DNA from: Candidatus Amesbacteria bacterium GW2011_GWB1_47_19
GTDB lineage: Bacteria > Patescibacteriota > Microgenomatia > CAZETR01 > Amesbacteraceae
NCBI GenBank assembly: GCA_001002325.1
Contig: LCNZ01000007.1
Coordinates: 91,410-155,409 of the forward strand
Length of the DNA stretch: 64,000 nucleotides
Direction: 5' to 3'
A program made the position numbers and the translations under genes. The notes under the pieces were generated by a model. The model worked only from the letters and a program-made list of their open reading frames with translations, did no database searches and had not been told where the DNA came from. Below are positions 13,383 to 63,079 of this stretch, one piece after another. Every line of letters begins with the position of its first letter. Position 1 is the first letter of the stretch.

Positions 13383-14074
13383 GCCGAAAGGCCGTTGTAG
13401 TTAAAAAAGTCGACTATATGCTGGAATATCTGGAGTATCTAGCACTAGTTTATTTCGGGTATATTTCGGAGTAGACTGAAAATGTGTCTAGTGCAGACAA
13501 TCAGCAGGAAAGGTTAAAGACAGGACATTTTTTGGCAGGATTTGTTGAAGGCGAAGGAAGTTTTAATATTTCCATACGCCGTAAAGCAGACTATAAAGTA
13601 AGTTGGCAGGTGGTGTTGAGCTTTAATGTATCTCAACGCGATCCATCACTTTTATATTTGCTAAAACAAACTCTTGATTGTGGGATTATTAAAAAACGTT
13701 TTGATGGTGTTTATTCGTTTGATGTGACAACACCTGCGGACGCGATTTATAAAGTAATTCCATTTTTCCAAGAATTTCCGCTTCGTTCAAAGGATAAAAT
13801 TCGTAACTTTAACTTATTTGTTAAAGTGGCGAATTTAATGAAGAACGGAGAACACAAAACCCAAGAAGGACTGTTTAATATTCTGAGCATCAGAGAGAAA
13901 ATAAACTTGGGTAAGGGGAGGACTAGAAAATATTCGATTTTCGATGTATTTCCCAATCTGTCTTTAGAATCCCCAGAGACTATACGTCGACTTCGGCAAT
14001 CGCCGAAATGATATAGTCCGGACTCCATGGCGACATGGAGAGACGTAACCAATCGTCCTTTGTAACAAATCGAA
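13383..14074 (+). mobile_element. Group I intron 1 in 23S (E. coli position ~1917) with a homing-endonuclease gene.
   Basis: The exon breaks after ..gtaactatga and resumes at ..ctgttctatggtagcgaagttcc. Confidence 0.7.
13484..14011 (+). CDS. LAGLIDADG homing endonuclease (single-motif type).
   Basis: LAGFVEGEGSF motif. The ORF is inside the intron. Confidence 0.75.
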   Translation: MSSADNQQERLKTGHFLAGFVEGEGSFNISIRRKADYKVSWQVVLSFNVSQRDPSLLYLLKQTLDCGIIKKRFDGVYSFDVTTPADAIYKVIPFFQEFPLRSKDKIRNFNLFVKVANLMKNGEHKTQEGLFNILSIREKINLGKGRTRKYSIFDVFPNLSLESPETIRRLRQSPK

Positions 14075-14109: not shown

Positions 14110-14784
14110 CGGCGGAAGCAAGCCCGACGTAAAAAACTGACTCATATCGGTGGAGCCTCTTGACCTTCGGGTTTTATAAGGTCAGGATGGTAATACCGAG
14201 GGAAGTCGTCCGGTTGATAACTGGATTGACCCCGTAACGACTTAGGATGCACGTACATCCTGGAGGCATTATGCCTAACACGTCAGTATCACGGAATGTT
14301 TGCTGGTATCTATCGGGTTACGCCGATGGAGAAGGCAGCTTTTGTGTAAGTTTTTCTCCCAGAAATAAGTTAAGGTCCAAACTTGAAGTTAGACCGAGTT
14401 TTTCGGTATCGCAAAACGCTGATAGATCCGAAGTCCTTTCTCTGTTTCAACAGATATTGGGATGCGGAACTATCAGGCCAGATAGAAGCGATAAGACTTT
14501 AAAGTTTGAAATCCGAAGTTTATCTGAACTAGTTGAAAAAGTGATACCTTTTTTTGAAAAATATCACTTGATGTCTTCTAAAAGAAAAGATTTTTCTGTA
14601 TTTTCCCAAATTTGTCATTTGATGAATGAAGGAAATAAAAGTAAATCGGAATTAGAACATATCATTAGACTGGCGATGAAGATGAATGTTTCTGGAAAAA
14701 GAAAATATAACACACATAAACTTATAAGTATTTTGTGATAAAGGTATAGTCTATCCCATTGGTGACAATGGATTTAAAGATGAA
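14110..14784 (+). mobile_element. Group I intron 2 in 23S (E. coli position ~1931). It lies only ~35 nt of exon downstream of intron 1.
   Basis: The exon breaks after ..cttgtcgggtaag and resumes at gttccgacccgcacgaa. Confidence 0.7.
14247..14738 (+). CDS. LAGLIDADG homing endonuclease (single-motif type).
   Basis: LSGYADGEGSF motif. The ORF is inside the intron. Confidence 0.75.
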   Translation: MHVHPGGIMPNTSVSRNVCWYLSGYADGEGSFCVSFSPRNKLRSKLEVRPSFSVSQNADRSEVLSLFQQILGCGTIRPDRSDKTLKFEIRSLSELVEKVIPFFEKYHLMSSKRKDFSVFSQICHLMNEGNKSKSELEHIIRLAMKMNVSGKRKYNTHKLISIL

Positions 14785-15310: not shown

Positions 15311-16135
15311 TTAACCAAAAAGGTCATCGGGGTGCATGGCTAGCAATAGCTTTAGCAAGTCTGTTTTAATTGGTTATTTCTGACTCATATCGGGGAACTC
15401 CTTGAATTCGTGTTTGTTTCGGTTTAGTCTAGATTAACATGAACGAGGACAATCCCGAGGGAAGTCTTACGGAAATGGAAAAGCACATTGTTGAGGGTTG
15501 CCTATTGGGTGACGCAACGATGAGAATAAAAACTAATTCTTTGATTGAAATCAACCACTCTTTCAAACAGAAGGCCTTGGTTGATCATTTGTACTTTGTT
15601 TTGAAAAGATTTGTGATTACAAAACCAAAAATGCGGAGAGGTAATGGAACAAGGTTTGCTTATCGGTTTACTACCCGGTCTTTATCTTTGTTCAACGATT
15701 TTTTCTTTCGCTTTTATGCTGGTGGGAAAAAGAAAATTCCTCATGATCTAGATTTAACTCCTGTTCATCTGGCGTATTGGCTTATGGATGATGGGAGCAG
15801 AACTTATAATACCGTGTATTTAAATACTCAACAATTTATAAAAAGTGATCAAGAGGTATTATTAAGCAAACTCCGTGAATTACACATTGCGGCTTCGTTA
15901 AACAAAGACAAGACATATCAAAGAATAAGGATTGCCGTATCAAGCATTCCGAGATTGAAAAATGTGGTGATACCATATATTCTTCCGGAAATGCGATACA
16001 AAATTCCGTAATGACCCTGTATCGACTTGTGGTTTCAAGACCACGGACTCGCCTTTCGGCGGGTAAGACGTCAGCTCCCGATTTGCTTTATTGGGATGAA
16101 GGTATAGTCAGCGCTTCGAGTAATCGGAGTATCTA
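15311..16135 (+). mobile_element. Group I intron 3 in 23S (E. coli position ~2449).
   Basis: The exon breaks after ..ggtttggcacc and resumes at ..gcgatgtcggctcaccctatcctgg. Confidence 0.7.
15439..16011 (+). CDS. LAGLIDADG homing endonuclease (double-motif type).
   Basis: Two motifs, CLLGDATM and WLMDDGS. The ORF is inside the intron. Confidence 0.65.
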   Translation: MNEDNPEGSLTEMEKHIVEGCLLGDATMRIKTNSLIEINHSFKQKALVDHLYFVLKRFVITKPKMRRGNGTRFAYRFTTRSLSLFNDFFFRFYAGGKKKIPHDLDLTPVHLAYWLMDDGSRTYNTVYLNTQQFIKSDQEVLLSKLRELHIAASLNKDKTYQRIRIAVSSIPRLKNVVIPYILPEMRYKIP

Positions 16136-16242: not shown

Positions 16243-17051
16243 GACCCGCCTTAACATTTGGCGGGTGACACTGAGCTGTCCATCCTTCAAAACGTTTTGA
16301 ATGTATAAGAGGAGTCTGTTAATTGAAGGTCCCAAAATCAGTTTGGGAATAAATCTGACTAAATGCTGGAAAACCTTGTTAAGTAGTATCTACTAGTATA
16401 TGATTTGTATACTAGTAACAAAGATACCTAATTCGGTGGATACGAAGCAAGGCAATCAGCAGGAAAGGCTAGTTAAAGAAATCAGCGACGATTATTTGAG
16501 AGGTTTTGTAGAAGGCGAGGGCTGTTTCTATATAGGAATAGTTAAGTCTTCTGAAACACTTACTCATTGGCAAGTGGTCTATTTTTTCAAAGTTTCCCAA
16601 AATCCATCCGGAAGGGTGGTGTTGGAGAAGCTTAAGGAAAAACTGGGCTGCGGTTATATTAAAAGAAATAGTCTAACTGACAAAACCGATAAAAGTTTGG
16701 CATTTGTTGTGAGAGACTTGCCAAGTTTGTCCGAGAAAGTAATTCCGTTTTTTAAGGATATGCTGTTTACACAAAAGAAGGACGACTTTCAAAAGTTTTC
16801 TCAAGTTGTGGTAATAGTATCTTTGGGGAAACATCTAAAAAAGACCGGAATGAAAGAAATTCTTGACGTCGCTTATACGATGAATACAGGTAAACGCAAG
16901 TATTCAAAGGAAGAGATACTGAAGAATTTTGATGACTAGAATCCTCAACGACTATACGTCAGATCCCGCTTGGCGGGAAAGATATAGTCTGAACCCTATA
17001 GTGATATAGGGAGCGAATACTATTCGCCGTTTTTTAACGTAACAATAATGT
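16243..17051 (+). mobile_element. Group I intron 4 in 23S (E. coli position ~2593, the classical I-CreI/I-CeuI homing region).
   Basis: The exon breaks after ..cgtgagacagtt and resumes at cggtctctatccagtagag..cagtacgagaggacc. Confidence 0.7.
16400..16939 (+). CDS. LAGLIDADG homing endonuclease (single-motif type).
   Basis: LRGFVEGEGCF motif. The ORF is inside the intron. Confidence 0.75.
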   Translation: MICILVTKIPNSVDTKQGNQQERLVKEISDDYLRGFVEGEGCFYIGIVKSSETLTHWQVVYFFKVSQNPSGRVVLEKLKEKLGCGYIKRNSLTDKTDKSLAFVVRDLPSLSEKVIPFFKDMLFTQKKDDFQKFSQVVVIVSLGKHLKKTGMKEILDVAYTMNTGKRKYSKEEILKNFDD

Positions 17052-39794: not shown

Positions 39795-41078
39795 TCAGCC
39801 AGCAATAGTAGATCCAGTAATAAACTTTATATATTGTTCTGCTTCGTCGCGGTAGTCTTTGAAAAGGGTGAAACTGGGAGCGGCGGGGGAGAGGAGGCAA
39901 ATTTCCCCTGATGCAGTATGATCCAGTGCCAGTTTGACTGCATCCTGCATACTTTCAGTGTAATAGTACCCGATGTTCGGGTTTTGTTTAACAGAGATAA
40001 TTTCACTCCAAATCCGGGGTCCGGTGGCGGGGAAAGCAATAAGTGTCTTTATACCTGAAGATAGTATCTTTTTTGCTAATTCGGAGTAATTTTGTTTGCG
40101 ATCATGGCCGCCGGCGATAAGAGTGGTGACTTTGGGGTGTAATGCGTCTATAGCAGCGATTGTCGCTTCAGGAATGGTCGCCAGAGTGTCGGAGTAAAAC
40201 TCAATTCCTTTTTTTGTACCTACCGGTTGCAGGCGGGTATCCAGGGGGGTGAATTCTTTGACCGCGGCGTAGAGTTTATCCTTCGGGAGATTAAGAATTT
40301 CAGCGACTTTCAGGGCGGGAATGATATTGAGCCGATTGTGTTTGCCAAGGAGTTTGGTTTTTGTAGCCGGACCGAAGTCATTAAAGGAAAATATAATTTT
40401 TTTGGCAAGGGTGGGAATATCTGTTTGAGTGATCAGATAATCTTTGGCAGATTGGAAATTGGTAATATTGTATTTGGCATTTTTATATTCCTCGAAGCCT
40501 GTGTGGTAGTCCAAATGATCCGAATAAATGGCCTGCAAAACTGCGATATGTGGGCTGGTTTGCAGATCCATCAGCTGGTAAGAAGACAGCTCTAACACGA
40601 CCCAGGTGTCTGGGGTGATTTCCGGCAGGAAATCCAGCGCTGGACGACCGATATTGCCTACCAATACTACCGGTAAACTCGATTTTTTGATAACTTCATA
40701 TATCAGACTGGTAGTAGTAGATTTACCCTTTGTGCCGGTAATACCGATAGTATTTTTGCTGGGGCAGACCTCAAAGAATATTTCCGTATGGGAAGTGAAA
40801 ACTGCACCCCTTTTTTTAGCGGCTACTAATTCAGGTTTATGGGGAGAGATACCGGGACTTTTAATTACCAATTTCCAATTTTCAATTTTCAAATAATTTT
40901 CACCAAACTGTATATGTATCAGGGGGTCGTCGGGGAGCCAGTCGGGGGTTTTTTGATCGGCCAGACCGATAATCAGTTCAGGAAATTTCGCACGCAGATA
41001 TTTGTAAGTGGATTGGCCTTCCCGGGCAAAACCCAATATGAGAACTTTATCGGATTGGGAAATTTTATCGATAATCAT
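39795..41078 (-). CDS. murD: UDP-N-acetylmuramoylalanine--D-glutamate ligase.
   Basis: Mur ligase P-loop IGITGTKGKSTTTS. It contains an in-frame caatttt-family insertion (LKIENWKL) near the N-terminus. Confidence 0.7.
   Translation of the reverse strand: MIIDKISQSDKVLILGFAREGQSTYKYLRAKFPELIIGLADQKTPDWLPDDPLIHIQFGENYLKIENWKLVIKSPGISPHKPELVAAKKRGAVFTSHTEIFFEVCPSKNTIGITGTKGKSTTTSLIYEVIKKSSLPVVLVGNIGRPALDFLPEITPDTWVVLELSSYQLMDLQTSPHIAVLQAIYSDHLDYHTGFEEYKNAKYNITNFQSAKDYLITQTDIPTLAKKIIFSFNDFGPATKTKLLGKHNRLNIIPALKVAEILNLPKDKLYAAVKEFTPLDTRLQPVGTKKGIEFYSDTLATIPEATIAAIDALHPKVTTLIAGGHDRKQNYSELAKKILSSGIKTLIAFPATGPRIWSEIISVKQNPNIGYYYTESMQDAVKLALDHTASGEICLLSPAAPSFTLFKDYRDEAEQYIKFITGSTIAG
40868..40893. repeat. 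caatttt-family repeat inside murD (coding on the minus strand as LKIENWKL).
   Basis: ccaatttccaattttcaattttcaaa. Confidence 0.7.
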
Positions 41079-41091
41079 ATTAAGTTTTTAA

Positions 41092-41147
41092 AACCTCACC
41101 TCTAACCCCTCTCCTAATTCAGGAGAGGGGAACCGAAGGGGTGAGGT
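41092..41147 (+). repeat. Nested palindromic repeat, copy C. It overlaps the 3' end of the PP-loop gene, and the TGA stop lies in its loop.
   Basis: cctcacctctaacccctctcctaattcaggagaggggaaccgaaggggtgagg, with inner and outer inverted repeats. Confidence 0.7.
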
Positions 41148-42477
41148 ATTGGGATTTTAATATATCTTCGAATTCCTTTGGCATGTTGGGATTATCCTGC
41201 CAGGAGGAGAGGATCCGGTCTAGTCCTTTTCCGGTAAAAGCCGCATTGGCTTCGGCGCGGGTGAGGACGCATTCGAAAGGTTTGACGGGGTTTTTGCCCA
41301 GCAGGTCATCCATAATACTTATATTTTCGGGCAGGTCAGGGGGATATGAGCCCATTATTTCCGACACTTTATCTTTACCTATAAAACAAGCCAGCATCAT
41401 GGCGGTGGAAACGCATTTGGGACAGTGTTGACACCATAAGCCTTTGGGATGGCTTTTGGGATCCAGTTTGAAGTTGGTGTTGCAGCTGGAAAAGATTTTG
41501 AAATATTGTGGATAGCGGGAAAAGATTTTGGTAATTTGGATTTCGTAGAGAGGACGGAGGAAGGAAAAATATGAGATATGAGAATTGAGAAATAAGAGAT
41601 ATTGGTTGAAATCAGTTTCAAATTCCAGTGACTTGGAATATTGATGGTTGATGGTGTGGTCCAAATATTCGGTGTTACCTTCATCACTGCTGCGCTCGTT
41701 ACTGAAGGTGATATATTTGCATTCGGTAATTTGGGCTGCCAATAATGCTTCAAATGAATGTGTAGCAGTGATAGGGACATGACCATTCAAATAGCCTAGT
41801 GAATTAAGTTCATGGAGATGGGGATCGATGGTGCTGGTCAGGATAAAAGGCGACAGGCTTGCGGTCTTGCAGACGTTTAACATCAGAGGGACAGGGTCGA
41901 CCAGGAAGGGAATAACATTGTAGTGGGGTTTGAGGAGTTCGAGGGTGACGATGGAGTCTTTGCCCCCACCGACTGGAACCAGAACTTTGTTATTCCCCCA
42001 TATTTTCTTAAATACCTCACCCTCTTCTCCCTCTCCTAATCTAGGAGAGGGATGGGGAGAGGTTTTAAAAGCGCTTAATGCCAGAAAATCCTTTTCGGTA
42101 AAATCAATTTGATTCTTGTAAAAATATTCCCCCATGCCTTTTAAAAACAATTTTTCCCAAAAAGAAATTTGAGAGGCAGACAGGTTTCCGGCCCGGATTT
42201 CGATGACGGGGGAGCAGGTGGATTTCCAGTAGGAGGGCATTAAAGACAGACCCATATGGAAGATGAGATTATCCAGGGTTGGTAGTACCTCACCCCTTTG
42301 ATTCCCCTCTCCTAATTTAGGAGAGGGGTTAGGGGAGAGGTTAATTTTATGGGTGAAGTGGTGATCAGGTGGGATGGAATAGAAAAATTTAATTTCCAAA
42401 TCCCCGTTTACTATTTCGTACTCAAACTTCTCGTAAATAAATTTGGGGTATTTATGGCGAAGTTCCTGATACTTCAT
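41119..42477 (-). CDS. PP-loop (SGGxDS-type) ATP pyrophosphatase family protein of unknown specificity, embedded between murD and murC.
   Basis: VLVPVGGGKDS PP-loop at about residue 165 and a downstream CQHCPKC. Two in-frame copies of the palindromic repeat encode SP(H/N)PSP(R/K)LGEG..GEV. Confidence 0.5.
   Translation of the reverse strand: MKYQELRHKYPKFIYEKFEYEIVNGDLEIKFFYSIPPDHHFTHKINLSPNPSPKLGEGNQRGEVLPTLDNLIFHMGLSLMPSYWKSTCSPVIEIRAGNLSASQISFWEKLFLKGMGEYFYKNQIDFTEKDFLALSAFKTSPHPSPRLGEGEEGEVFKKIWGNNKVLVPVGGGKDSIVTLELLKPHYNVIPFLVDPVPLMLNVCKTASLSPFILTSTIDPHLHELNSLGYLNGHVPITATHSFEALLAAQITECKYITFSNERSSDEGNTEYLDHTINHQYSKSLEFETDFNQYLLFLNSHISYFSFLRPLYEIQITKIFSRYPQYFKIFSSCNTNFKLDPKSHPKGLWCQHCPKCVSTAMMLACFIGKDKVSEIMGSYPPDLPENISIMDDLLGKNPVKPFECVLTRAEANAAFTGKGLDRILSSWQDNPNMPKEFEDILKSQYLTPSVPLS
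42012..42065 (+). repeat. Nested palindromic repeat, copy D (inside the PP-loop CDS, in frame).
   Basis: cctcaccctcttctccctctcctaatctaggagagggatggggagagg. Confidence 0.7.
42287..42342 (+). repeat. Nested palindromic repeat, copy E (inside the PP-loop CDS, in frame).
   Basis: cctcacccctttgattcccctctcctaatttaggagaggggttaggggagagg. Confidence 0.7.
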
Positions 42478-46396: not shown

Positions 46397-47641
46397 ATGG
46401 GGGATATGGATAAAGTGAAACTGAAAAAGGAAATTAGGTGGTGGGGACAGAGGGTGAAGAATGTGTATCATTTCCTGGTATCGGCGGCGATGGTAATAAA
46501 ATACGGATATCCGGCGGGAAAACTGACAGTAATCGGAGTGACGGGGACGGACGGAAAGACGACGACATGCACTCTGATATACGAAATACTCAAGGCTGCA
46601 GGGTACAAAACAGCTTTGATTTCCACCGTGGTAGCGAAAATAGGTGATCAGGAGATAGAAACCGGTCTGCATACGACGAATCCGGATGCGAGACAGATGC
46701 AGCCTTTGTTAGCGCGAATGGTAAAGGCGGGAGTGACGCATCTGGTGATGGAGGTGACAGCGCACGGACTGGACCAATACCGGGTATGGGGGTGCAATTT
46801 TTATATCGGGGTACTGACGAATATAACCCATGAACATCTGGATGATTTTGTGGATATGAGGAGATATATATCTGCTAAAGCCAAGTTGTTTAGGGGAGTA
46901 AAGTTTGCCGTATTGAATGGGGATGATCTGTCGTTTAGGAATTTACAATTTTCAATTTACAATTTTCAATCAAATTCAAAACCCCAAATAATTAAATATT
47001 CAAAAACAAAATTAAAAAATATCAGTCCAGCGCTTTTTGGGGGATACAATTTATATAATATCGGCGCGGCGGAAGCGGTGTGCCGAATATTAGAAATTAG
47101 AAGTGAGATAGTAGAATTGACAGTAGGTAATTTTTCAGGAGTACCGGGGAGGAGGGAAGAAGTGAAGGTGGGGCAAAAATTCAGGATATACGTTGATTTT
47201 GCTCATACTCCCAATGCTTTGGAACAGATGCTAAGGACACTTCAAGCGGAGCAGGCACAGCAGGCAAAGAAAGGTAAAATAATTCTGGTTTTTGGGTGCA
47301 CGGGGGAGAGAGATAAAGATAAAAGACCTATGATGGGAGAGATTGCCGCGAGGCTGGCGGATGTGGTGATAGTTACTTCGGACGATACGAGGATGGAAGA
47401 TCAAAATGAGATTGCCCGGCAAATTGTCGCCGGGATAGAAAAGAGAGACAGAAACAGAGTAATTATTGAAAATGACAGGCGGAAAGCGATTGAAATGGCA
47501 GTGGGTAAGGCCAAACCCGGCGACGCTGTATTATTGGCAGGAAAAGGGCATGAAAAGTCTATTCTGATAGGTAAAACCGAGAGACATTGGTCGGACAAAG
47601 AAGAGGTAATACAGGCTTTTGAAAAGCAGGTTTGTCTGTGA
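46397..47641 (+). CDS. murE: UDP-N-acetylmuramoyl-L-alanyl-D-glutamate--2,6-diaminopimelate (or L-Lys) ligase.
   Basis: P-loop VIGVTGTDGKTTT and the MurE DFAHTPNAL motif. An AT-rich in-frame insertion (NLQFSIYNFQSNSKPQIIKYSKTKLKN) lies at 46941-47030. Confidence 0.7.
   Translation: MGDMDKVKLKKEIRWWGQRVKNVYHFLVSAAMVIKYGYPAGKLTVIGVTGTDGKTTTCTLIYEILKAAGYKTALISTVVAKIGDQEIETGLHTTNPDARQMQPLLARMVKAGVTHLVMEVTAHGLDQYRVWGCNFYIGVLTNITHEHLDDFVDMRRYISAKAKLFRGVKFAVLNGDDLSFRNLQFSIYNFQSNSKPQIIKYSKTKLKNISPALFGGYNLYNIGAAEAVCRILEIRSEIVELTVGNFSGVPGRREEVKVGQKFRIYVDFAHTPNALEQMLRTLQAEQAQQAKKGKIILVFGCTGERDKDKRPMMGEIAARLADVVIVTSDDTRMEDQNEIARQIVAGIEKRDRNRVIIENDRRKAIEMAVGKAKPGDAVLLAGKGHEKSILIGKTERHWSDKEEVIQAFEKQVCL
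46941..47030 (+). repeat. caatttt-family AT-rich module inside murE, in frame.
   Basis: aatttacaattttcaatttacaattttcaatcaaattcaaaacccc... Confidence 0.7.
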
Positions 47642-49208: not shown

Positions 49209-49210
49209 AT

Positions 49211-49243
49211 AAAAAAAGCGCCTTTTTTAAGGCGCTTTTTTTA
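49211..49243. terminator. Bidirectional rho-independent terminator between convergent genes.
   Basis: aaagcgcctt / aaggcgcttt perfect hairpin with A/T tracts on both sides. Confidence 0.65.
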
Positions 49244-50719: not shown

Positions 50720-50997
50720 AAAATTTCAGGAGGTACGGGCCTGGAGAATTTGACTGAGAATGGGCCATTTCCGGCCAAATTGTTTGGTCAGACTGATAAG
50801 TATAGAAATTTGGCAACCGATCCCAAAAAGTTCGATATGCTGATTCATATTTGCCTTTAGAGGGGGTGGTTGTTGGTTAAGTGAGGTTTTAAGGGCACAC
50901 TGGGCGTCGGGATTGATACTTCTGGCACAAAGAGCTGCCCTGCAGGGGCCGGAATCCACAGGTTGAAGTTCAAGATTTCTCATAGGATATTTATTGG

Positions 50998-51068
50998 TGG
51001 ACCCGAGGGGAATTGAACCCCTTTCTACTCCATGCCATGGAGTTATTCTACCGGTGAACTACGGGCCC
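50998..51068 (-). tRNA. tRNA-Ala (anticodon GGC).
   Basis: Cloverleaf on the minus strand. Anticodon loop auGGCau and the G3:U70 pair. Confidence 0.75.
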
Positions 51069-51350: not shown

Positions 51351-52016
51351 GTGACGAAAAAGAAACTGGGCTTGTTTAAACGGTTGGTAATAGGGGGATT
51401 GGTGGCCGGTCTGGTGGTATCGGGGACTGTGAATGCGTATTTTTGGAAAACCAAACAGGAAGAGATGCGGGTAATACATGTGCTGGATGGGGATACCTTT
51501 ACCCTGAAAAGGGGAGTGAGAGTGAGGCTGATCGGAGCCGACGCCCCGGCGTATGACGCTTGTCTGGGCCAGGAAGCAACCAAAAAATTAGAGGAGTTCG
51601 TGTTGGGGAAAACGGTGAGGCTGGAAGGAATTAAATGGGACCAGTGGGGGCGGCAGATGGCGTTGGTTTATGCAGACGGGGTGTGGGTGGATGAGGCGAT
51701 GATTAAAGCCGGGCTGGCCAAGGCTGAGTATCCGGACTCGAAGGTGAACGCCGGACTGCGGGCAGCCCACAATGAATCCTCTGAAAAGAAAGTCGGAATA
51801 TTCGGCCCCGAATGTAATCAGAAATACAATGCAGAAGAAGTGAATTGCCAGATTAAGGGTAATTTTGATCAAACCAAATGGACGAAAAAATATTACTTGC
51901 CGGAATGTCCGCATTACAACACGGTCAGGGTGAATCTGGCGGCCGGGGACAAGTTTTTCTGCAACGAAGATGAAGCCCAAAAAGCAGGATTCCTATTGGC
52001 TGAAGATTGCAAATAA
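51351..52016 (+). CDS. Thermonuclease (staphylococcal nuclease-like) with an N-terminal membrane anchor and a Cys-containing C-terminal extension.
   Basis: VLDGDTFTL..VRLIGADAP..GRQMALVY SNase motifs. Confidence 0.7.
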   Translation: MTKKKLGLFKRLVIGGLVAGLVVSGTVNAYFWKTKQEEMRVIHVLDGDTFTLKRGVRVRLIGADAPAYDACLGQEATKKLEEFVLGKTVRLEGIKWDQWGRQMALVYADGVWVDEAMIKAGLAKAEYPDSKVNAGLRAAHNESSEKKVGIFGPECNQKYNAEEVNCQIKGNFDQTKWTKKYYLPECPHYNTVRVNLAAGDKFFCNEDEAQKAGFLLAEDCK

Positions 52017-52021
52017 ATGTG

Positions 52022-52092
52022 TGGACTCACCGGGAATTGAACCCGGATCTCGTCGATGCGAACGACGTGTTCTACCGTTTAACTATGAGCCC
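52022..52092 (-). tRNA. tRNA-Ala (anticodon CGC).
   Basis: Cloverleaf on the minus strand. Anticodon loop uuCGCau and the G3:U70 pair. Confidence 0.75.
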
Positions 52093-52118
52093 GAGAATGT
52101 ATTTGAATTTTATCATTT

Positions 52119-52511
52119 GTGGGTGATAATCCGGTAATGAATACGGAGCTCAATTGTCGGAGGGATTGCTTGGCTGCTTGCTGCAGGAGGATTAACATAA
52201 GATTGCATACAACTGAAGCGGAGATTTTGACAAAACACGGGGCAAGATTAAGATTACTCGAAGATCTACCAGACGGGATGGGGCGGCATTTATATTATAT
52301 GCCGGGATGCCCGTTTCTGCGGTTTCGAAGTCGGGGTGAGCAAGGTGTTAAAGGTGTTATAGATTGTGGAGTGTATACAGCACCTCAAAAGATGCAAATT
52401 TGTGAGCAAGTACCCGTGGGAGGGAGGGTGTGTCTGGCAATGAGAAATACCTCGGGAGGTGTCAAAAAAAGAGAAACTGAGGCGGATAGAAGGTTTTGGG
52501 AGAGAATTTAA
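52119..52511 (+). CDS. Cysteine-rich hypothetical protein.
   Basis: CRRDCLAACC cluster plus further Cys residues. 130 aa. Confidence 0.35.
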   Translation: MGDNPVMNTELNCRRDCLAACCRRINIRLHTTEAEILTKHGARLRLLEDLPDGMGRHLYYMPGCPFLRFRSRGEQGVKGVIDCGVYTAPQKMQICEQVPVGGRVCLAMRNTSGGVKKRETEADRRFWERI

Positions 52512-54586
52512 CGGGCGGGAGTGGGAGTAGCACTCACGGGGGAGGGAGCAGGTGTACCGCTGGTTTCAGGACCCAGTTCGGAAGGAAGTTCAATAGGAGG
52601 CGTAATTTTGGGAGAAGGGAGGGCTTTGGGGGCGACCAGCTCGGTTTGAGCAGGAGCCTGAACCGGGGTTTGGGGTTGAGCGGAGGTCTCACCCAATTTC
52701 TTGCGCAGTTCTTCCAGTTCGGCTGAGGCTTTGGTAAAGTCCGCGGAACCCTTGTCGATCAGGTTGACCACTGCCTGCATGGCTGTGAAAGCGTTTCTGT
52801 TATCTCCTTTTTCGCGGTAAGCGGCAGCCAGATTGTAATAAGCGTTGGCTTGGTCGGGTTTGAGATCAACAGCCTGTTGGAAGAAACGGATAGCCTCGTC
52901 GTAGTTCTTGGTGGCGTAAAGAACACCTCCCAGGGAAATTCTCAAATTGGGGTTGACGGGATCCAGAAGTATGGCCTGGCGATAGGAGGCTACAGTCCAG
53001 ACATCTGCACCCTGGGCGAAATTGACCAGATTGCGATAAACATTAGCCAGATTTTCCACATTGGTGACTTTGACCGGGTTTAAGGAAACGGCGTTTTTAG
53101 CCTCACGGATCGACTGCTGAATGAGCTGGGTGATAGTATTGCGGTCTTCGGGAGTTAGTTCCTGCTTGGCTGCGGCAGTATTGGCCAAGAGTAAATTGGT
53201 TTGAGAATAAGCTACCCGGTATGAGTCCCTATAAGGATTGGTGCGCATGGCGGCAATCAGGTTGTCGTAAGTTCCTTTGCCCTGGTTGGCTGCAGCAGAC
53301 CTGAGAGCATTCTGGAAGTAAATTTCTGCAATATAACCCCGGATGCCCAGGTAAACGATAGGGACAACCAGGGTCAAAGCTAAACCGAAACTGACTATGG
53401 GCAAAATGGGTGAATGTATTCCGGAATCCGAGGCAGCTACAATGTCGATATTGGCTTCGTGTACCATGGATGACCCCATTTGTTTGAAAGACTGAACCAG
53501 AATGAGTATCAGGGTAAAGATCAGAAACAGAGATACCAGGGAGACGGGAGTGAATAGCTGAAGGGTGAAGGCGGCTATAAGGGAAAGTCCGGAACCCAAG
53601 GCTAATATACGGAAAGGGGATTCCGAGGTTGATTTTACGGCTTGCACAAACAGATTGAGGGATTTGATGATGACAAAGACGTAGGCCAGAAGCCCGAGTA
53701 TTCCCAAGGTGGACATGATTTGCAGGTAATAGTTACTAGCGCTGGTAAACCGGACGTTCCACAGGGGACTCAAATTGAAACTAATTGGTCGGAAGCGGCT
53801 AAAATTAACCAGGTATGTTGCAGGGCCGGTACCGAGCAGCGGGGATGATTTCAGAGATTCCAACGCTATAGCCCAACTGACGGATTGGGGAAGAAACGCC
53901 GGACGGGAAGCAATACCCTGACCAAAAAGGCGGTAGGTAAGTAAGCCACCGGCAATAATCGAACCCAAAAGGGACAGGGAGAGAAGCAAAGTTTTTGTGG
54001 AGTTACTTTTATCTTTGAGGATGAGGACAATATGAAGAGGCAAAAGGGTAGCCAGGAAAATAACGGTAGCCAACGAATTGCCGGTGGGGGACCAGAGAGG
54101 AGTTTTCATAAAGTTGAAAGGGATGATCTGAGGAAGAAGTCCGGAAGAAAAAAGAATCGTGACAATAGATAAAACTCCAGTGGATAGTATGAGACCATAA
54201 ATCAAAAACTCCAGCTCCTTTTTGTGCCGGATCAGGTTGACGGAAGTGAAAAAGAATAAGACCAAACCCAGCATGGTGGCTGTCTGCCCGGGTTCAATCA
54301 GAGCGTCGAATTTGTTCGGGGTACGTAAAACAGTAGACAGGACCCAGGTAGCTAAAAGTGCCAGTAGAGGCAGACCCAGAGGGCTTCTCACTAATCGTAC
54401 CTGACGGTTGATGACAAAACTGGCAGTCCAGATGACCAGTAGAACAAGAGAAGAGAGAACAAGCAGGTACTGCTTGTTAAACTCGTAGAATTCAGAGGTA
54501 ACGGGGGCAAAAAAGAGGGGAATTACAACTATGGTTCCCAGAATTACAAAGTAGCCGATTTTTTGCAGGGTGGAGGCGAGTTTCAT
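52508..54586 (-). CDS. O-antigen ligase/polymerase-like (Wzy_C) polytopic membrane protein with C-terminal TPR repeats and a Pro/Thr/Ala-rich tail.
   Basis: ~12 TM helices, then TPR-like YYNLAAAYREKGD repeats, then a low-complexity PAPSPVSATPTPA tail. Confidence 0.55.
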   Translation of the reverse strand: MKLASTLQKIGYFVILGTIVVIPLFFAPVTSEFYEFNKQYLLVLSSLVLLVIWTASFVINRQVRLVRSPLGLPLLALLATWVLSTVLRTPNKFDALIEPGQTATMLGLVLFFFTSVNLIRHKKELEFLIYGLILSTGVLSIVTILFSSGLLPQIIPFNFMKTPLWSPTGNSLATVIFLATLLPLHIVLILKDKSNSTKTLLLSLSLLGSIIAGGLLTYRLFGQGIASRPAFLPQSVSWAIALESLKSSPLLGTGPATYLVNFSRFRPISFNLSPLWNVRFTSASNYYLQIMSTLGILGLLAYVFVIIKSLNLFVQAVKSTSESPFRILALGSGLSLIAAFTLQLFTPVSLVSLFLIFTLILILVQSFKQMGSSMVHEANIDIVAASDSGIHSPILPIVSFGLALTLVVPIVYLGIRGYIAEIYFQNALRSAAANQGKGTYDNLIAAMRTNPYRDSYRVAYSQTNLLLANTAAAKQELTPEDRNTITQLIQQSIREAKNAVSLNPVKVTNVENLANVYRNLVNFAQGADVWTVASYRQAILLDPVNPNLRISLGGVLYATKNYDEAIRFFQQAVDLKPDQANAYYNLAAAYREKGDNRNAFTAMQAVVNLIDKGSADFTKASAELEELRKKLGETSAQPQTPVQAPAQTELVAPKALPSPKITPPIELPSELGPETSGTPAPSPVSATPTPAR

Positions 54587-54654
54587 ATATGTGTGATTGT
54601 ATTAAGTAAAATATTTTTGTGGCGAATAGTCAAGATGATAAATGAATGAGCTGT

Positions 54655-54670
54655 TTCCTATTGCGCAATA
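54655..54670. promoter_or_regulatory. Perfect 16-bp palindrome upstream of the RAYT-like gene.
   Basis: cctattgcgcaatagg equals its own reverse complement. Confidence 0.4.
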
Positions 54671-54695
54671 GGTGGCTCCTTGATATTGTTGGGTT

Positions 54696-55391
54696 ATGGA
54701 GCCTCGCTGGTACCATATATATAATAGAGGCATTGACGGAAGGCAGGTGTTTACTTCTTCCGGCGACTACGACAAATTTATTTGGGTTCTGAAAACATAC
54801 TTAGGAGAATTCAAAATAAAACAAGATCCGAGATTTAAGACCGACAGACCGTATATCAGCAGACATAAGCAAAGAATGAATTTACATGACAAAGTTTGTC
54901 TGGCAGCTTATTGCTTGATGCCTAATCATTTTCATCTGCTGGTACAACCGGAATCTGCCGGTCGGGTGACATATCTGATGAGAAGGGCTATGACAAATTA
55001 CGGAATGTATTTTAATCAGAAATATCAGCGGAGGGGTACATTATGGGAAGGAAGTTACAGATGTGTTGAAGTCTGGGGGGAAGAGAGGATTGTCCATCTT
55101 TCCAGATGGATTCATCTAAATCCGTTGCAGCAGGAAATACGAAGGTTTGGTTTAGTGACTACGGTAACCGGAGCTCGCCCTGAGGAATATTTGTACTCAA
55201 GTTATCATTGGTATCTGCATACCGGAGAAATTGATGACTGGATAAGACCTGACCTGGTACTGGATATCTTTAAAGGATTTAACCAAGGACGCTGGGGTAG
55301 TTATCAACAGTTTATAGAGGACTCCAGATTAAACACGGTCAGCATCATAGGATCCATGGCTATTGATACGGGGAGAGAAAAAATTTCTTAG
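54696..55391 (+). CDS. IS200-like / REP-associated tyrosine transposase (RAYT) family HUH protein.
   Basis: N-terminal YHIYNRG, HuH motif PNHFHLL, and downstream Tyr-containing region (YSSYHWY). Confidence 0.6.
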   Translation: MEPRWYHIYNRGIDGRQVFTSSGDYDKFIWVLKTYLGEFKIKQDPRFKTDRPYISRHKQRMNLHDKVCLAAYCLMPNHFHLLVQPESAGRVTYLMRRAMTNYGMYFNQKYQRRGTLWEGSYRCVEVWGEERIVHLSRWIHLNPLQQEIRRFGLVTTVTGARPEEYLYSSYHWYLHTGEIDDWIRPDLVLDIFKGFNQGRWGSYQQFIEDSRLNTVSIIGSMAIDTGREKIS

Positions 55392-55486
55392 TCAACCGTA
55401 TTTTTTCGACCCGCTGTAGGGCTGTCTGCCGGGCGTTTTTTCAGACGGATAATATAAGACATATTGAAGAAATCAGAGGAGGCAGT

Positions 55487-56062
55487 TTATTTAAGGAGGA
55501 AGTAAGTGAGAAAGAAGCTGCCGATAAAGATTATCAAAAGCAGGGGGTAGACGATTGCCGGAGCAAATGATGATACCCTATTTTTAACGGGAGTTGTGTG
55601 AACCACCTCCGGCATGAGTTTTATCAAATCGAAATGATTTGGAGTGGATGAGTCCAACGGCCTGATAGGTTCTGATAACGGTGGAGAATAGGAAGGGGTC
55701 GGGGGAGTTGGCGCCGGTGGAGGAGGAGAAAAAGTAACATCGGGGGTTTGAATCGGGGGAATAGGGGCAGGCTGGAGCAGATTGGTCTGATGACAAAAGT
55801 CTATAAATTTTCTCATTGAAGACAAGCGACGTTTTACCGTAGCCGGAGGATTGGTACTGGTGAGGTATTCCTCGTATTTTTTTGCCACTTCAGGTTGTGT
55901 GATTGTGGATAAGCTTTCGGGGGTAAGAGGCTGGTATTGAGTGGAGACAAAGAAGAGAAGAACCCTTAAGTCGGATACATAGTTTTTTAAAGTATTGGGT
56001 GAAACTGACTGGCTGATCAGCTGTTGCCGAAATTGAGAGAGTAAATCCTGAGTATAATCCAT
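55487..56062 (-). CDS. Membrane-anchored protein with a phage-integrase N-terminal SAM-like (core-binding) domain and a Pro-rich linker.
   Basis: N-terminal LSQFRQQL..NTLKNYVSDLRVLL..VKRRLSSMRKF resembles the XerC/D N-domain. There is a PPPPAPTPPTP linker and a C-terminal TM helix, but no catalytic domain. Confidence 0.35.
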   Translation of the reverse strand: MDYTQDLLSQFRQQLISQSVSPNTLKNYVSDLRVLLFFVSTQYQPLTPESLSTITQPEVAKKYEEYLTSTNPPATVKRRLSSMRKFIDFCHQTNLLQPAPIPPIQTPDVTFSPPPPAPTPPTPSYSPPLSEPIRPLDSSTPNHFDLIKLMPEVVHTTPVKNRVSSFAPAIVYPLLLIIFIGSFFLTYFLLK

Positions 56063-61957: not shown

Positions 61958-63079
61958 ATGAGGATCGGGGTTGATGCCAGCAGGGCGTTTGTGCCTGACA
62001 GGACCGGGACGGAGGAGTATTCGTGGCAGATAATAAAGCATATTTTAGCTTTGCCGGAGGCGCGGAAGCATGAGTGGATACTTTATGTTAAACCAAATTT
62101 TCAATTTTCAATTTTCAATTTTCAATCAATTCCAAATGTTCAAATTTTGAAAATTCAAATCCCGTATTTGTGGACGCAGGTGGGGTTGGTATGGCGGACG
62201 TGGGTGGACAGGCTGGATGTGCTATGGATTCCGGCACATACCTTGCCCGTACTGCGAAAACCAGGGATAAAAACCATTGTTACCATCCACGGGATTGAGT
62301 ATGAATGGCTGCCGGCGTATGAAAATGCCCTACAGCGATGGTATTTACCGCTCAGTACTCAGTACGCAGTGCTCAGTGCTCATAAAATAATAGCCGTGAG
62401 TGAATTTACCAAGCGGCAGTTAGTGGAAAGGTTGGGGGCGGAGGAAAGGAAGATTGAGGTTGTTTACGAAGGAGTTGAGACAAATTTTCAATTTTCAATT
62501 ACCAATTTTCAATCAATTTTGAAAAAATTCAAATTACAAAGTAAAAAGTACCTGTTGTTTGTGGGGACGATACAGCCGAGGAAAAATTTGGAAAGACTTA
62601 TTGAGGCATTTTCAGTACTCAGTACTCAGTGCTCAGTGCTCAATCTCAAGTTAGCCATAGCTGGGAAGTGGGGGTGGAATTATGATGGCGTGAAGCAGGC
62701 TCCGGTTAAGTTTGGGGTGGAGGACCAGGTGGAGTTCACCGGCTTTGTGGATGAACAGGAGAAGAAAATACTTCTGCAGAATTGCCTGGTATATGTCCAG
62801 CCGAGTATTACTGAAGGGTTCGGATTGCCGGTGTTGGAGGCTTTTGCAGCCGGGGTACCCGTTGTGTCCTCGTCCGGCGGGGCTTTAGGAGAGATAACGG
62901 CTGACAGCGGGCAGCTGTTTGACCCCGAATCGGCGGTAGACATGGCAGAAAAATTGAAGGCAGTGGTAAGAAACGGAAAGCTCCGGCGGGAATTGGTCCG
63001 GAAGGGGAGGGAAAGAATCAAAAAGTTCAGTTGGTCAATGGCTGCAGAAAAAACCTTAAAGATTATCGATGGCTTATAG
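61958..63079 (+). CDS. GT4-family glycosyltransferase carrying four in-frame short-repeat insertions.
   Basis: GT4 core (IGVDA..LLFVGTIQPRKNLERLIEAF..EGFGLPVLEAFAAGVPVVSS). Repeats lie at 62095-62160 and 62483-62550 (caatttt type) and at 62351-62382 and 62610-62650 (ctcagtN type). Confidence 0.75.
   Translation: MRIGVDASRAFVPDRTGTEEYSWQIIKHILALPEARKHEWILYVKPNFQFSIFNFQSIPNVQILKIQIPYLWTQVGLVWRTWVDRLDVLWIPAHTLPVLRKPGIKTIVTIHGIEYEWLPAYENALQRWYLPLSTQYAVLSAHKIIAVSEFTKRQLVERLGAEERKIEVVYEGVETNFQFSITNFQSILKKFKLQSKKYLLFVGTIQPRKNLERLIEAFSVLSTQCSVLNLKLAIAGKWGWNYDGVKQAPVKFGVEDQVEFTGFVDEQEKKILLQNCLVYVQPSITEGFGLPVLEAFAAGVPVVSSSGGALGEITADSGQLFDPESAVDMAEKLKAVVRNGKLRRELVRKGRERIKKFSWSMAAEKTLKIIDGL

What the first reader, a model, noticed from the sequence alone, without database searches (positions are those of the whole stretch)
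54655..55391. RAYT/IS200-like HUH transposase gene with a perfect 16-bp palindrome at its 5' end: a candidate mobiliser of the palindromic repeats
The ORF at 54696-55391 has the Y1-transposase hallmarks: N-terminal YHIYNRG, HuH (PNHFHLL) and a downstream Tyr-containing region (YSSYHWY). Immediately upstream is cctattgcgcaatagg, a perfect 16-bp palindrome, and the hairpin ggctcc..ggagcc spans the start codon. REP-associated tyrosine transposases are the enzymes proposed to spread REP-type palindromes. The same window holds a five-copy palindromic repeat family.
Basis: partly seen in the sequence, partly recalled or inferred. Interest (0 to 1): 0.55.

Follow-up and report, generated by a model that had tools for sequence, protein, structure and literature searches.

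The report
Transposase-like gene missing its catalytic tyrosine
This gene from an uncultured Candidatus Amesbacteria has the fold of a REP-associated (RAYT/IS200-type) transposase and a conserved palindrome in front of it, but the tyrosine these enzymes use to cut DNA is replaced by tryptophan, so it is most likely a long-retained DNA-binding relative and not a working mobiliser of the window's palindromic repeats.

Summary
The ORF (54696-55391), the HUH motif and the perfect 16-bp palindrome (54657-54672) are real. The protein is a class-2 (RAYT-like) Y1 HUH protein: it passes the Pfam Y1_Tnp cut-off and its best fold match is E. coli RAYT 4er8. The catalytic Tyr of the class-2 Y---NP motif is Trp138 here, which corresponds to Y115 of E. 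coli TnpA_REP and Y132 of ISDra2 TnpA. All closest orthologues (51-100% identity) share the Trp. They sit in the same Wzy_C/TPR-Y1-LeuRS synteny and are under purifying selection, so this is a resident, non-mobile gene and not a pseudogene. The palindrome alone is barely above chance, but it is conserved at orthologous loci. It is a shortened version of a strong hairpin found 5' of the gene family-wide. In many Tyr-bearing CPR relatives the same hairpin flanks both ends of the gene, a REPtron-like layout. The five-copy palindrome family lies at least 12 kb away, is unrelated in sequence, and its copies have diverged. Verdict: the family assignment is right and the mobiliser role is not supported. 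Best reading: an immobilised RAYT-like protein without a nucleophile that probably still binds its 5' hairpin.

The parts
54696..55391 (+). Gene for a 231-aa class-2 (RAYT-like, subclass-2.1-like) Y1 HUH-fold protein that lacks the nucleophile Tyr
   Evidence: ORF. Pfam PF01797 scores 35.9 bits against a cut-off of 23. The AF2 model has pLDDT 90.2. Top Foldseek hits are 4er8, 2xm3 and 2vjv. It is single-copy in the window.
54927..54935 (+). Codons for HUH (H78-F79-H80), retained
   Evidence: Direct reading; nearly invariant in the family.
55107..55124 (+). Codons for W138-I-H-L-N142-P143. This is the class-2 'Y---NP' motif with Trp (TGG, 55107-55109) in place of the catalytic Tyr. Asn142 (metal ligand) is retained.
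   Evidence: Family consensus is RYIHLNP. It aligns with ISDra2 'KYI' Y132 and E. coli TnpA_REP 'DYIYINP' Y115/N119. Motif definition is in PMC6006769.
55194..55202 (+).
   Evidence: S168/S169 are invariant or nearly so. They align with 'FST' of 4er8. The SS motif of subclasses 2.1/2.2/2.6 is described in PMC6006769.
54657..54672 (.). Perfect 16-bp palindrome CCTATTGCGCAATAGG in the 5' leader. It is a shortened relic of the family's 5' cognate hairpin. An imperfect extension, GAGC...GCTC, spans 54648-54678.
   Evidence: Conserved as CCTATTGCGC[A/T]AT[A/T/G]GG in L020, L007, L011/L012 and as CCTGTTGCGCAATAGG in L016. It is the centre of the 30-32-nt palindrome of L016/L007.
54674..54703 (+). 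Weak hairpin GGCTCC / GGAGCC (6-bp stem, 18-nt loop) enclosing the start codon. It is not conserved, so its significance is doubtful.
   Evidence: Predicted in the MFE fold; absent from L020, L011 and L007.
55407..55421 (+). Conserved non-coding 15-mer CGACCCGCTGTAGGG, 16 nt after the stop. It is specific to the Trp clade and may be a relic of a 3' cognate hairpin. Function unknown.
   Evidence: Identity is 13-15 of 15 in L001-L006, L007, L009/L010, L020 and L011/L012, although synonymous sites are saturated. There is no significant fold (z +0.45). L008 lacks it through a clean 118-bp indel.

Best explanation
The gene encodes an immobilised, vertically inherited descendant of a REPtron-type RAYT-like (TnpA_Y1 class 2, subclass-2.1-like) protein. 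SHOWN: it has the Y1 HUH fold and keeps the HUH histidines and the metal-binding Asn. The nucleophilic Tyr of the Y---NP motif is Trp138. The same substitution is fixed in all Amesbacteria-type orthologues. The gene stays in one syntenic slot (Wzy_C/TPR | Y1-like | LeuRS-ComEA-ComEC), is single-copy in the window, and is under purifying selection. Only a shortened 5' hairpin remains of the two matching flanking hairpins seen in many Tyr-bearing relatives. INFERRED: without the Tyr it cannot form the 5'-phosphotyrosyl intermediate, so it cannot cut and rejoin DNA as a transposase. What is selected is a non-catalytic activity. The most likely one is strand- or structure-specific binding of hairpin (or dyad) DNA, with the conserved palindrome in its own 5' leader as the best candidate site. 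That would allow autoregulation or some other DNA-structure-dependent host role. It does not mobilise the window's five-copy palindromes.
For: Fold and family: Pfam Y1_Tnp is above the cut-off. The AF2 model has pLDDT 90, with 4er8 (E. coli RAYT + REP) as the top Foldseek hit, then ISDra2, IS608 and IS200 TnpA. The motifs NHFH, WE, (W)IHLNP and YSS match subclass 2.1 in Table 1 of PMC6006769. Nucleophile: the family 'RYIHLNP' Tyr aligns with ISDra2 Y132 (2xo6 is the Y132F mutant) and with E. coli TnpA_REP Y115, and the Asn aligns with N119. Y115F and Y130F mutants do not cleave (PMC8266576). Trp is fixed in P0001-P0005 and L020. Not a pseudogene: ORFs are intact in at least 4 diverged lineages, with pS 0.71-0.84 (saturated) against pN 0.28-0.36 and dN/dS about 0.23. 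Loss of catalysis: across 254 relatives, Tyr loss goes with HUH loss (5/25 vs 2/229, p=1e-4) and Asn loss (8/25 vs 10/229, p=6e-5), with about 13 independent changes. Sister P0003 has lost Tyr, HUH and Asn yet keeps synteny and the 5' motif. Residency: synteny is conserved down to about 43% identity. Hairpin: the 5' palindrome is conserved at orthologous loci. Family-wide, the 70 nt before the ATG fold much better than control upstreams (median z -2.64 vs -0.38, p=3e-12). The same palindrome lies on both flanks in 22/61 non-syntenic Tyr-bearing loci against 0/9 syntenic loci.
Against: No binding has been shown, so the palindrome-protein link is by analogy with RAYT/REP and IS200/IS605 hairpin recognition. 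Retention of both His residues and the Asn in window, L020 and L007 long after Tyr loss is unexplained, and could mean a metal-dependent activity survives. The window's own palindrome is short (6-8 bp stem) and folds only marginally better than shuffles. It could act instead as an mRNA leader structure or as the site of another regulator. The sequence alignments to solved structures are weak (E 0.004-0.07), although they agree with each other, with the fold search and with the published motif. Only 64 kb of the genome was examined, so dispersed copies of the palindrome elsewhere cannot be excluded.
Confidence: 0.6

Rival explanations
1. One reading: an active RAYT that spreads the window's five-copy palindromic repeat family.
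For: The protein is RAYT-like in fold. Related Tyr-bearing CPR genes are flanked by their own palindromes, with occasional extra copies nearby. The window does hold a REP-like nested hairpin family.
Against: The nucleophile Tyr is absent, and Y-to-F mutants of real RAYTs do not cleave. The repeat family is at least 12 kb away, shares no sequence with either flank, and has no hit in any of about 100 Y1-bearing loci. Its copies are only 61-89% alike, with compensatory stem changes, so it has not spread recently. The protein scores 37 bits against a cut-off of 80 for the NCBIfam RAYT equivalog.
Confidence: 0.04
2. The protein is still a nuclease or nickase that uses the intact HUH/Asn metal site with water or another residue as nucleophile. 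It would be a hydrolytic, non-religating enzyme acting at hairpins.
For: His78, His80 and Asn142 are kept in window, L020 and L007 despite long divergence. 20 of 25 Tyr-less relatives keep HUH.
Against: No other conserved Tyr lies on the alphaD helix. Tyr loss is statistically tied to erosion of HUH and Asn. Sister orthologue P0003 lost all catalytic residues yet is conserved in place. I know of no HUH enzyme that works without a Tyr nucleophile (my own knowledge; not tested here).
Confidence: 0.12
3. The palindrome works independently of the protein. It could be an mRNA 5'-leader stem-loop that limits translation or blocks read-through (as in IS200), or an operator for another regulator of the divergent Wzy_C/Y1 promoter region.
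For: It lies in the 109-bp divergent intergenic region between the two starts. In relatives the 3' arm abuts the ATG (L013, L017, L022) or abuts a TTGACA box 35-38 nt before the ATG in 8/49 loci. G:T wobbles in L016 and L007 favour the sense strand (direct reading). IS200 is known to use such leader hairpins (my own knowledge).
Against: In many relatives the same palindrome is also present after the stop codon, inside the CDS, and occasionally kilobases away. A pure leader or operator role would not predict that. There is no Rfam match and no significant sigma-70-type promoter on the + strand. This reading is not exclusive of protein binding.
Confidence: 0.2
4. A functionless relic: a dead transposase gene drifting towards loss, with a chance palindrome nearby.
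For: The nucleophile is lost, the 3' hairpin is lost, and the N-terminus is about 11-16 aa shorter than the family consensus. A 16-bp palindrome is not rare in 64 kb.
Against: There is purifying selection at saturated dS. ORFs are intact and synteny is kept across lineages 51-58% identical. The model is confident and well folded. The palindrome and the 3' 15-mer are conserved at orthologous loci.
Confidence: 0.04

Closest known systems
TnpA_Y1 subclass 2.1 (Quentin et al. 2018, PMC6006769) = Bertels group 1 RAYT = 'TIRYT' of Di Nocera et al. 2013 (PMC3733652)
   Same: HuH motif NH[YF]H, W[EQ]/FQ motif, [Y]IHLNP context, SS motif and length around 230-240 aa. Low copy number and no high-copy REP family. 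The gene is flanked by inverted or self-complementary repeats. Some relatives' boxes resemble the TIR motif GGGGWSAS (L021 GGGGAGAC; L007/L016/L022 GGTC[T/A]GAC).
   Different: The catalytic Tyr is Trp here, whereas both papers report Tyr and HUH conserved in all members they analysed. No member has a Pfam-detectable C-terminal HTH/Bac_DnaA_C domain. The host is Patescibacteria, which neither study sampled (0 mentions). The window has only a reduced 5' palindrome and no matching 3' repeat.
E. coli TnpA_REP / RAYT (group 2; PDB 4er8) and REPtrons
   Same: Best structural match. Shares the Y---NP-type active-site helix and the Ser motif. The gene is housekeeping-like, single-copy and vertically inherited (PMC5581495). 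Tyr-bearing CPR relatives have the gene bracketed by cognate hairpins, as in a REPtron.
   Different: W138 replaces Y115. The protein fails the NCBIfam RAYT equivalog (37 vs 80 bits). No GTAG-tagged REP flanks the gene on both sides, and the window holds no dispersed family matching the flanks.
IS200/IS605 TnpA (IS608, ISDra2, IS200; subclass 1.1)
   Same: Same HUH/Y1 fold. A hairpin lies just 5' of the gene, close to the translation start, as in IS200.
   Different: These have a Y---Q motif, not ---NP. They are about 130-150 aa with no tail, multi-copy, mobile, and often paired with tnpB. None of that applies here.
Engineered catalytic mutants TnpA_Ec Y115F, TnpA_Sm Y130F, ISDra2 Y132F
   Same: The nucleophile is replaced by an aromatic residue without a hydroxyl. 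These mutants lose cleavage and strand transfer (PMC8266576), and Y132F still crystallises bound to its DNA hairpin (2xo6). The window protein looks like a natural counterpart.
   Different: Those are laboratory constructs. Here the substitution is fixed in a natural clade and maintained under selection.

Membership tests
Y1 HUH transposase superfamily (Pfam PF01797, TnpA_Y1) | Sequence match to the Y1_Tnp profile above the curated cut-off | tested here: met
   35.9 bits vs cut-off 23, residues 55-139; all 43 aligned relatives also match.
Y1 HUH transposase superfamily (Pfam PF01797, TnpA_Y1) | HUH-type fold (beta-sheet with the HUH strand, plus the alphaD helix) | tested here: met
   AF2 pLDDT 90.2. 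Foldseek top 28 hits are RAYT, ISDra2, IS608, IS200 and S. tokodaii TnpA, E 2e-5 to 2e-3.
Y1 HUH transposase superfamily (Pfam PF01797, TnpA_Y1) | HUH metal-binding histidine pair | tested here: met
   H78-F-H80 is present.
Y1 HUH transposase superfamily (Pfam PF01797, TnpA_Y1) | Catalytic Tyr on helix alphaD | tested here: not met
   Trp138 occupies the column aligned with ISDra2 Y132 and E. coli TnpA_REP Y115. It is Tyr in 229 of 254 relatives.
RAYT / TnpA_REP (REP-associated tyrosine transposase) | Match to the NCBIfam equivalog NF047646 at its cut-off | tested here: not met
   37 bits vs cut-off 80.
RAYT / TnpA_REP (REP-associated tyrosine transposase) | Class-2 active-site context Y---NP, with Asn as metal ligand | tested here: inconclusive
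   ---NP (I-H-L-N142-P143) is present, but the first position is Trp, not Tyr.
RAYT / TnpA_REP (REP-associated tyrosine transposase) | Gene flanked on both sides by cognate REP/REPIN hairpins (REPtron) | tested here: not met
   The window has a short 5' palindrome and an unrelated 3' 15-mer. 0/9 syntenic loci have matching 5' and 3' palindromes, against 22/61 non-syntenic relatives.
RAYT / TnpA_REP (REP-associated tyrosine transposase) | Flanking sequence over-represented across the genome (REP family) | tested here: inconclusive
   The palindrome is unique in the 64-kb window at up to 3 mismatches. The rest of the genome was not available, and the metagenome scan returned only chance matches.
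RAYT / TnpA_REP (REP-associated tyrosine transposase) | Single or low copy, vertically inherited, housekeeping-like distribution | tested here: met
   One copy in the window. Synteny is conserved over 43-100% identity. Only 3 of 80 species genomes contributed two loci.
TnpA_Y1 subclass 2.1 / TIRYT | Motifs NH[YF]H, W[EQ] or FQ, Y[IV]HLNP, SS; median length about 238 aa | tested here: inconclusive
   NHFH, WE, IHLNP and YSS are present and the length is 231 aa, but the Y of Y[IV]HLNP is W.
TnpA_Y1 subclass 2.1 / TIRYT | C-terminal HTH-like domain (Bac_DnaA_C, HTH_23 or HTH_28) | tested here: not met
   No such Pfam hit at E<=0.1 in any of 43 family members. The C-terminal tail is helical in the model, but no fold match covered it.
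TnpA_Y1 subclass 2.1 / TIRYT | Flanking terminal inverted repeats, many with GGGGWSAS | tested here: not met
   The window flanks have no inverted pair and no GGGGWSAS. Relatives L021, L007, L016 and L022 have GGGGAGAC / GGTC[T/A]GAC boxes, but only on the 5' side.
IS200/IS605 insertion sequence | Y---Q motif, about 150-aa core-only protein, multicopy, subterminal hairpins at both ends, often with tnpB | tested here: not met
   The protein has an NP-type motif and is 231 aa with a tail. It is single-copy with conserved synteny, and no tnpB-like neighbour is present.

The most novel reading that the evidence does not exclude
Across Patescibacteria there is a large, undescribed branch of RAYT-like genes with REPtron-like cognate hairpins. 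Within it, several lineages, including all Amesbacteria-type orthologues, have lost the nucleophile Tyr (and sometimes HUH) yet keep the protein under purifying selection at a fixed locus next to a conserved hairpin relic. If so, the benefit that keeps RAYT-like genes in genomes would be a non-catalytic, hairpin-DNA-binding function and not DNA cleavage or REP mobilisation. These natural 'dead' variants would then be a handle on the long-unknown housekeeping role of RAYTs.
Probability: 0.3. Interest if true: 0.65.

Novelty: new variant of a known kind. Interest (0 to 1): 0.45.

Why it matters
RAYTs are the textbook case of domesticated bacterial transposases, but the host function that keeps them has never been identified (PMC5581495). 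Earlier surveys set aside sequences lacking the core motifs as probably non-functional (PMC6006769). Here a clade without the nucleophile is conserved in sequence, synteny and flanking motif over deep divergence, in organisms with tiny genomes that tolerate little junk. That argues that something other than DNA cleavage is being selected, and it gives a concrete protein/DNA pair (this protein plus CCTATTGCGCAATAGG) to test. It also shows that CPR genomes carry REPtron-like hairpin-gene-hairpin units that the literature I could search does not describe. Practically, 'transposase' or 'RAYT' annotations of this gene should not be read as evidence of mobility.

Tried and rejected
(1) A single-sequence phmmer search against PDB gave 0 hits; profiles were needed. 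With only 14 specified bases it was swamped by chance matches and says nothing about dispersal. (3) Sigma-70 promoter and terminator scans around the gene found nothing above shuffles on the + strand and no terminator, so the palindrome could not be placed relative to a transcription start. (4) Rfam at a permissive threshold gave no match in 54300-55700. (5) PADLOC gave no hit for the Y1-like protein or its Phage_int_SAM_1 neighbour, so a known defence system is not indicated. (6) No C-terminal HTH/DnaA_C domain was detected. (7) An integrated-island reading was considered. The nearest tRNA genes are 2.6 kb or more away, beyond the Wzy gene, and GC is only mildly lower (0.41-0.43 vs 0.47-0.52), so I rejected it in favour of conserved synteny. 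(8) dN/dS between Trp-clade lineages mostly cannot be corrected because dS is saturated, and near-identical pairs carry 0-2 differences. Selection is therefore argued from pN much lower than pS and from one correctable pair. (9) A search of all fetched loci for the five-copy core found no hits. (10) A literature search for RAYT/TnpA_REP/TIRYT together with Patescibacteria or Candidate Phyla Radiation found nothing relevant.
Full report
WHAT IS IN THE SEQUENCE. The window carries a 231-aa ORF at 54696-55391 (+). It lies between a divergently transcribed Wzy_C/TPR membrane-protein gene (52508-54586, -) and a convergent 191-aa gene that has only a Phage_int_SAM_1 domain (55487-56062, -). LeuRS, ComEA and ComEC follow. 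The identical protein is deposited as a hypothetical protein of Candidatus Amesbacteria RIFOXYB1_FULL_47_13. The perfect palindrome CCTATTGCGCAATAGG is at 54657-54672. GGCTCC (54674-54679) pairs with GGAGCC (54698-54703) across the ATG. On its own the palindrome is not remarkable. The window has three perfect 16-bp palindromes against 0.8 +/- 0.8 in shuffles. The leader folds only marginally better than shuffles (z -1.9). The palindrome is unique in the window even at three mismatches.

WHAT THE PROTEIN IS. It passes the Pfam Y1_Tnp cut-off (35.9 vs 23 bits). It fails the NCBIfam RAYT equivalog (37 vs 80 bits). An AlphaFold2 model built on 43 homologues is confident (pLDDT 90.2, pTM 0.88). Its best PDB matches are E. 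coli RAYT bound to a REP hairpin (4er8), then the ISDra2, IS608 and IS200 transposases. Its motifs are NHFH, WE, IHLNP and YSS, and its length is 231 aa. These are the motifs of TnpA_Y1 subclass 2.1 (Bertels group 1, 'TIRYT') as tabulated by Quentin et al. 2018 (PMC6006769). Unlike that subclass, no member has a Pfam-detectable C-terminal HTH.

THE KEY RESULT: NO NUCLEOPHILE. The family consensus around the active-site helix is LSRYIHLNP. That is the class-2 'Y---NP' signature, in which the Tyr is the nucleophile and the Asn a metal ligand (PMC6006769). Family profiles align this Tyr with Y132 of ISDra2 TnpA (PDB 2xo6 is the Y132F mutant). They also align it with Y115 of E. coli TnpA_REP ('DYIYINP'), and the Asn with N119. 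In the window protein this residue is Trp138 (TGG, 55107-55109). Y115F and Y130F mutants of real RAYTs do not cleave (PMC8266576).

NOT AN ERROR AND NOT A PSEUDOGENE. All of the closest homologues (P0001-P0005 and L020; 51-100% identity, from several named Amesbacteria genomes and independent metagenomes) carry Trp at this position. Neighbouring lineages carry Leu, Phe, Ile, His or Met. Between Trp-clade lineages, synonymous sites are saturated (pS 0.71-0.84) while pN is 0.28-0.36. The one pair that can be corrected gives dN/dS of about 0.23. Among 254 near-full-length relatives, 25 lack the Tyr. Tyr loss is associated with loss of the HUH histidines (5/25 vs 2/229, p=1e-4) and of the Asn (8/25 vs 10/229, p=6e-5). 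Parsimony on a rough NJ tree gives about 13 independent changes. The sample is biased towards relatives of the query, so these fractions are not family-wide frequencies. One orthologue, P0003, has lost Tyr, HUH and Asn. It is still intact, syntenic, and preceded by the same motif. Catalysis has therefore been given up, but the protein has not.

RESIDENT, NOT MOBILE. The arrangement Wzy_C/TPR(-) | Y1-like(+) | (SAM_1-only gene) | LeuRS | ComEA | ComEC is conserved for every homologue down to about 43% identity. This holds whether the homologue has Trp, Leu or Tyr. There is one copy in the window. There is no adjacent tRNA gene and no island-like composition. The wider family is very large, with 39,135 representatives at E<=1e-3. 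It is spread over Patescibacteria: Microgenomates lineages, Saccharibacteria, Parcubacteria lineages and Doudnabacteria. More distant members sit in other contexts, and a Wzy_C/TPR gene is the only strongly recurrent neighbour (17 of about 85 loci).

THE PALINDROME IS REAL BIOLOGY, BY COMPARISON. At the orthologous loci the same motif recurs. L020 has CCTATTGCGCAATAGG, L007 has ...CAATGGG, L011/L012 have ...GCTATTGG, and L016 has CCTGTTGCGCAATAGG. In L016 and L007 it forms the centre of a 30-32-nt palindrome. Other syntenic loci have a different sequence with the same architecture: two inverted boxes of about 11 bp with centres 21-22 bp apart, just before the ATG. Examples are L022 AGGTCTGACCT/AGGTCAGACCT, L013 GGATTCAATCC/GGATTGAATCC and L021 GGGGAGACCC/GGGTCTCACC. 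These fold strongly (z -4.7 to -5.6; 0 of 200 shuffles as good). Family-wide, the 70 nt before the start codon fold far better than the upstreams of control genes in the same loci (median z -2.64 vs -0.38; Mann-Whitney p=3e-12). In many Tyr-bearing, non-syntenic members the same palindrome also sits at or over the stop codon. With stems of at least 10 bp this holds for 22/61 non-syntenic loci against 0/9 syntenic loci. Sometimes it also lies inside the coding sequence at about +150 and +450 nt, or a few kb away (L085, L097, L073). That is a REPtron/TIRtron-like organisation. The window lineage has kept only a shortened 5' copy. Downstream it has a different conserved 15-mer, CGACCCGCTGTAGGG (55407-55421), which is specific to the Trp clade, does not fold significantly, and is of unknown function. 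In L007 it reads GACCC-gctgtagt-GGGTC, built from the same half-sites as that locus's 5' boxes. It may therefore be a relic of the 3' hairpin, but that is inference. The GGCTCC/GGAGCC hairpin over the ATG is not conserved.

THE FIVE-COPY REPEAT. It is a nested hairpin of about 57 nt (core CCCCTCTCCTAATNTAGGAGAGGGG; -19 kcal/mol, z -5.7) at about 5836, 30136, 41106, 42028 and 42304. It lies at least 12 kb from the gene. It shares nothing with either flank and has no hit in any Y1-bearing locus fetched. Its copies are only 61-89% alike, with compensatory stem changes. Nothing links it to this gene. A Tyr-bearing paralogue elsewhere in the genome cannot be excluded.

HOW IT MOST LIKELY WORKS. Shown: the protein has the HUH fold with its metal site intact and the nucleophile missing, it is selected and immobile, and it is preceded by a conserved hairpin relic. 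Inferred: the protein cannot make the 5'-phosphotyrosyl intermediate, so it neither transposes nor mobilises repeats. It probably retains the family's structure-specific recognition of hairpin or dyad DNA, with the palindrome in its own leader as the prime candidate site. That would allow autoregulation or another role that depends on DNA structure. In 8 of 49 non-syntenic relatives the hairpin abuts a TTGACA box 35-38 nt before the ATG. I estimate about one such case by chance, from my own arithmetic. This fits control of the gene's own expression. It fits equally well an IS200-like RNA or terminator role that needs no protein, and that is the main live rival. Retention of HUH and Asn after Tyr loss is unexplained and leaves a small chance of a hydrolytic activity.

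COMPARISON AND NOVELTY. The protein resembles RAYT/TnpA_REP and subclass 2.1/TIRYT proteins in fold, motifs and housekeeping-like behaviour. It fails defining features of each: the catalytic Tyr, the RAYT equivalog score, matching flanking repeats and a C-terminal HTH. Both reference surveys state that Tyr and HUH are conserved in their sets, and they set aside sequences lacking those motifs as probably non-functional. The searchable literature has nothing on this family in Patescibacteria. I therefore rate it a new variant of a known kind. The interest is moderate, not high, because the inactivation is clear but the positive function is only inferred.

Noticed in passing
window 41119-42477 (-), with repeat copies at about 41092-41148, 42012-42068 and 42286-42344: A 452-aa ORF with no Pfam hit and a GGGKDS PP-loop-like motif lies between two Mur-ligase genes. 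It reads through two copies of the five-copy nested palindrome in frame ('SPNPSPKLGEGN..GEV' and 'SPHPSPRLGEGE..GEV'), and a third copy overlaps its stop codon. This resembles the in-frame palindromic insertions (RPEs) of Rickettsia.
   Followed up: partly
window 55487-56062 (-): A 191-aa protein made only of a Phage_int_SAM_1 core-binding domain, a Pro-rich linker and a C-terminal hydrophobic helix, with no recombinase catalytic domain. It is the conserved convergent neighbour of the Y1-like gene in window, L020, L011, L017 and L021. So two adjacent genes derive from mobile-element enzymes, and neither has the catalytic part.
   Followed up: partly
L008:570-600 vs L009:570-717 (also L010, L020): In otherwise identical DNA there is a clean 118-bp indel immediately after the Y1-like stop codon. 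The segment carries the conserved CGACCCGCTGTAGGG motif. It is either a real polymorphism or an assembly difference.
   Followed up: partly
L035 (+149, +459), L044 (+152), L088 (+156), L025 (+451), positions relative to the Y1 start: In Tyr-bearing relatives, copies of the gene's own flanking palindrome lie inside the coding sequence. The positions correspond to the two variable, lower-confidence loops of the protein (about aa 40-60 and 145-165).
   Followed up: partly
L085 (-3077), L097 (+865/+880), L073 (+1697), positions relative to the Y1 start: Additional copies of the cognate palindrome lie away from the gene, with compensatory stem changes in L085. This hints at low-level REP-like dispersal in some CPR genomes.
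   Followed up: partly
window 174-217, 40863-40906, 46926-46969, 62096-62125, 62483-62512: Short tandem arrays of the heptamer AATTTTC occur at five places, some followed by a shared 'AATCAAT...' tail (families D1-D3).
   Followed up: no
window 5019-5606 (+); repeats at about 4982-5047, 13449-13480, 14187-14215, 15402-15472: A LAGLIDADG_3 homing-endonuclease-like ORF, with short repeated sequences shared between its surroundings and two other sites 8-10 kb away. These may be intron or homing-endonuclease-associated copies.
   Followed up: no
syntenic loci, 13-27 nt 5' of the hairpin (window 54629-54634): An invariant GTCAA(G/T) block is present in all nine syntenic loci (reverse complement CTTGAC, -35-like on the Wzy strand). 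In 8/49 non-syntenic loci a perfect TTGACA abuts the 3' foot of the hairpin instead.
   Followed up: partly
about 85 Y1-bearing loci (L007-L099): A Wzy_C/TPR (O-antigen-ligase-like) membrane protein gene is the only strongly recurrent neighbour of this family (17 loci). It appears in four different relative orientations, so this is not simple inherited synteny.
   Followed up: partly
window 50995-51068 (-), 52021-52092 (-): Two tRNA-Ala genes (GGC and CGC anticodons). The mechanical ORF at 51970-52137 overlaps the second one and is probably spurious.
   Followed up: no
window 49210-49243; 1706-1721; 16286-16301: A perfect hairpin with a 15-bp stem and 4-nt loop (TAAAAAAAGCGCCTT/TTTT), likely a bidirectional terminator, and the two other perfect 16-bp palindromes of the window (AACCGGCCGGCCGGTT, TTCAAAACGTTTTGAA).
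   Followed up: no
L004:3501-8830 vs window 56063 onward: One assembly encoding the identical Y1-like protein keeps the Wzy, Y1 and SAM_1 trio. It then continues into different genes (PNPOx, DUF5678, a YafQ/PhdYeFM toxin-antitoxin pair) in place of LeuRS, which marks a strain-level rearrangement boundary right after the SAM_1 gene.
   Followed up: no
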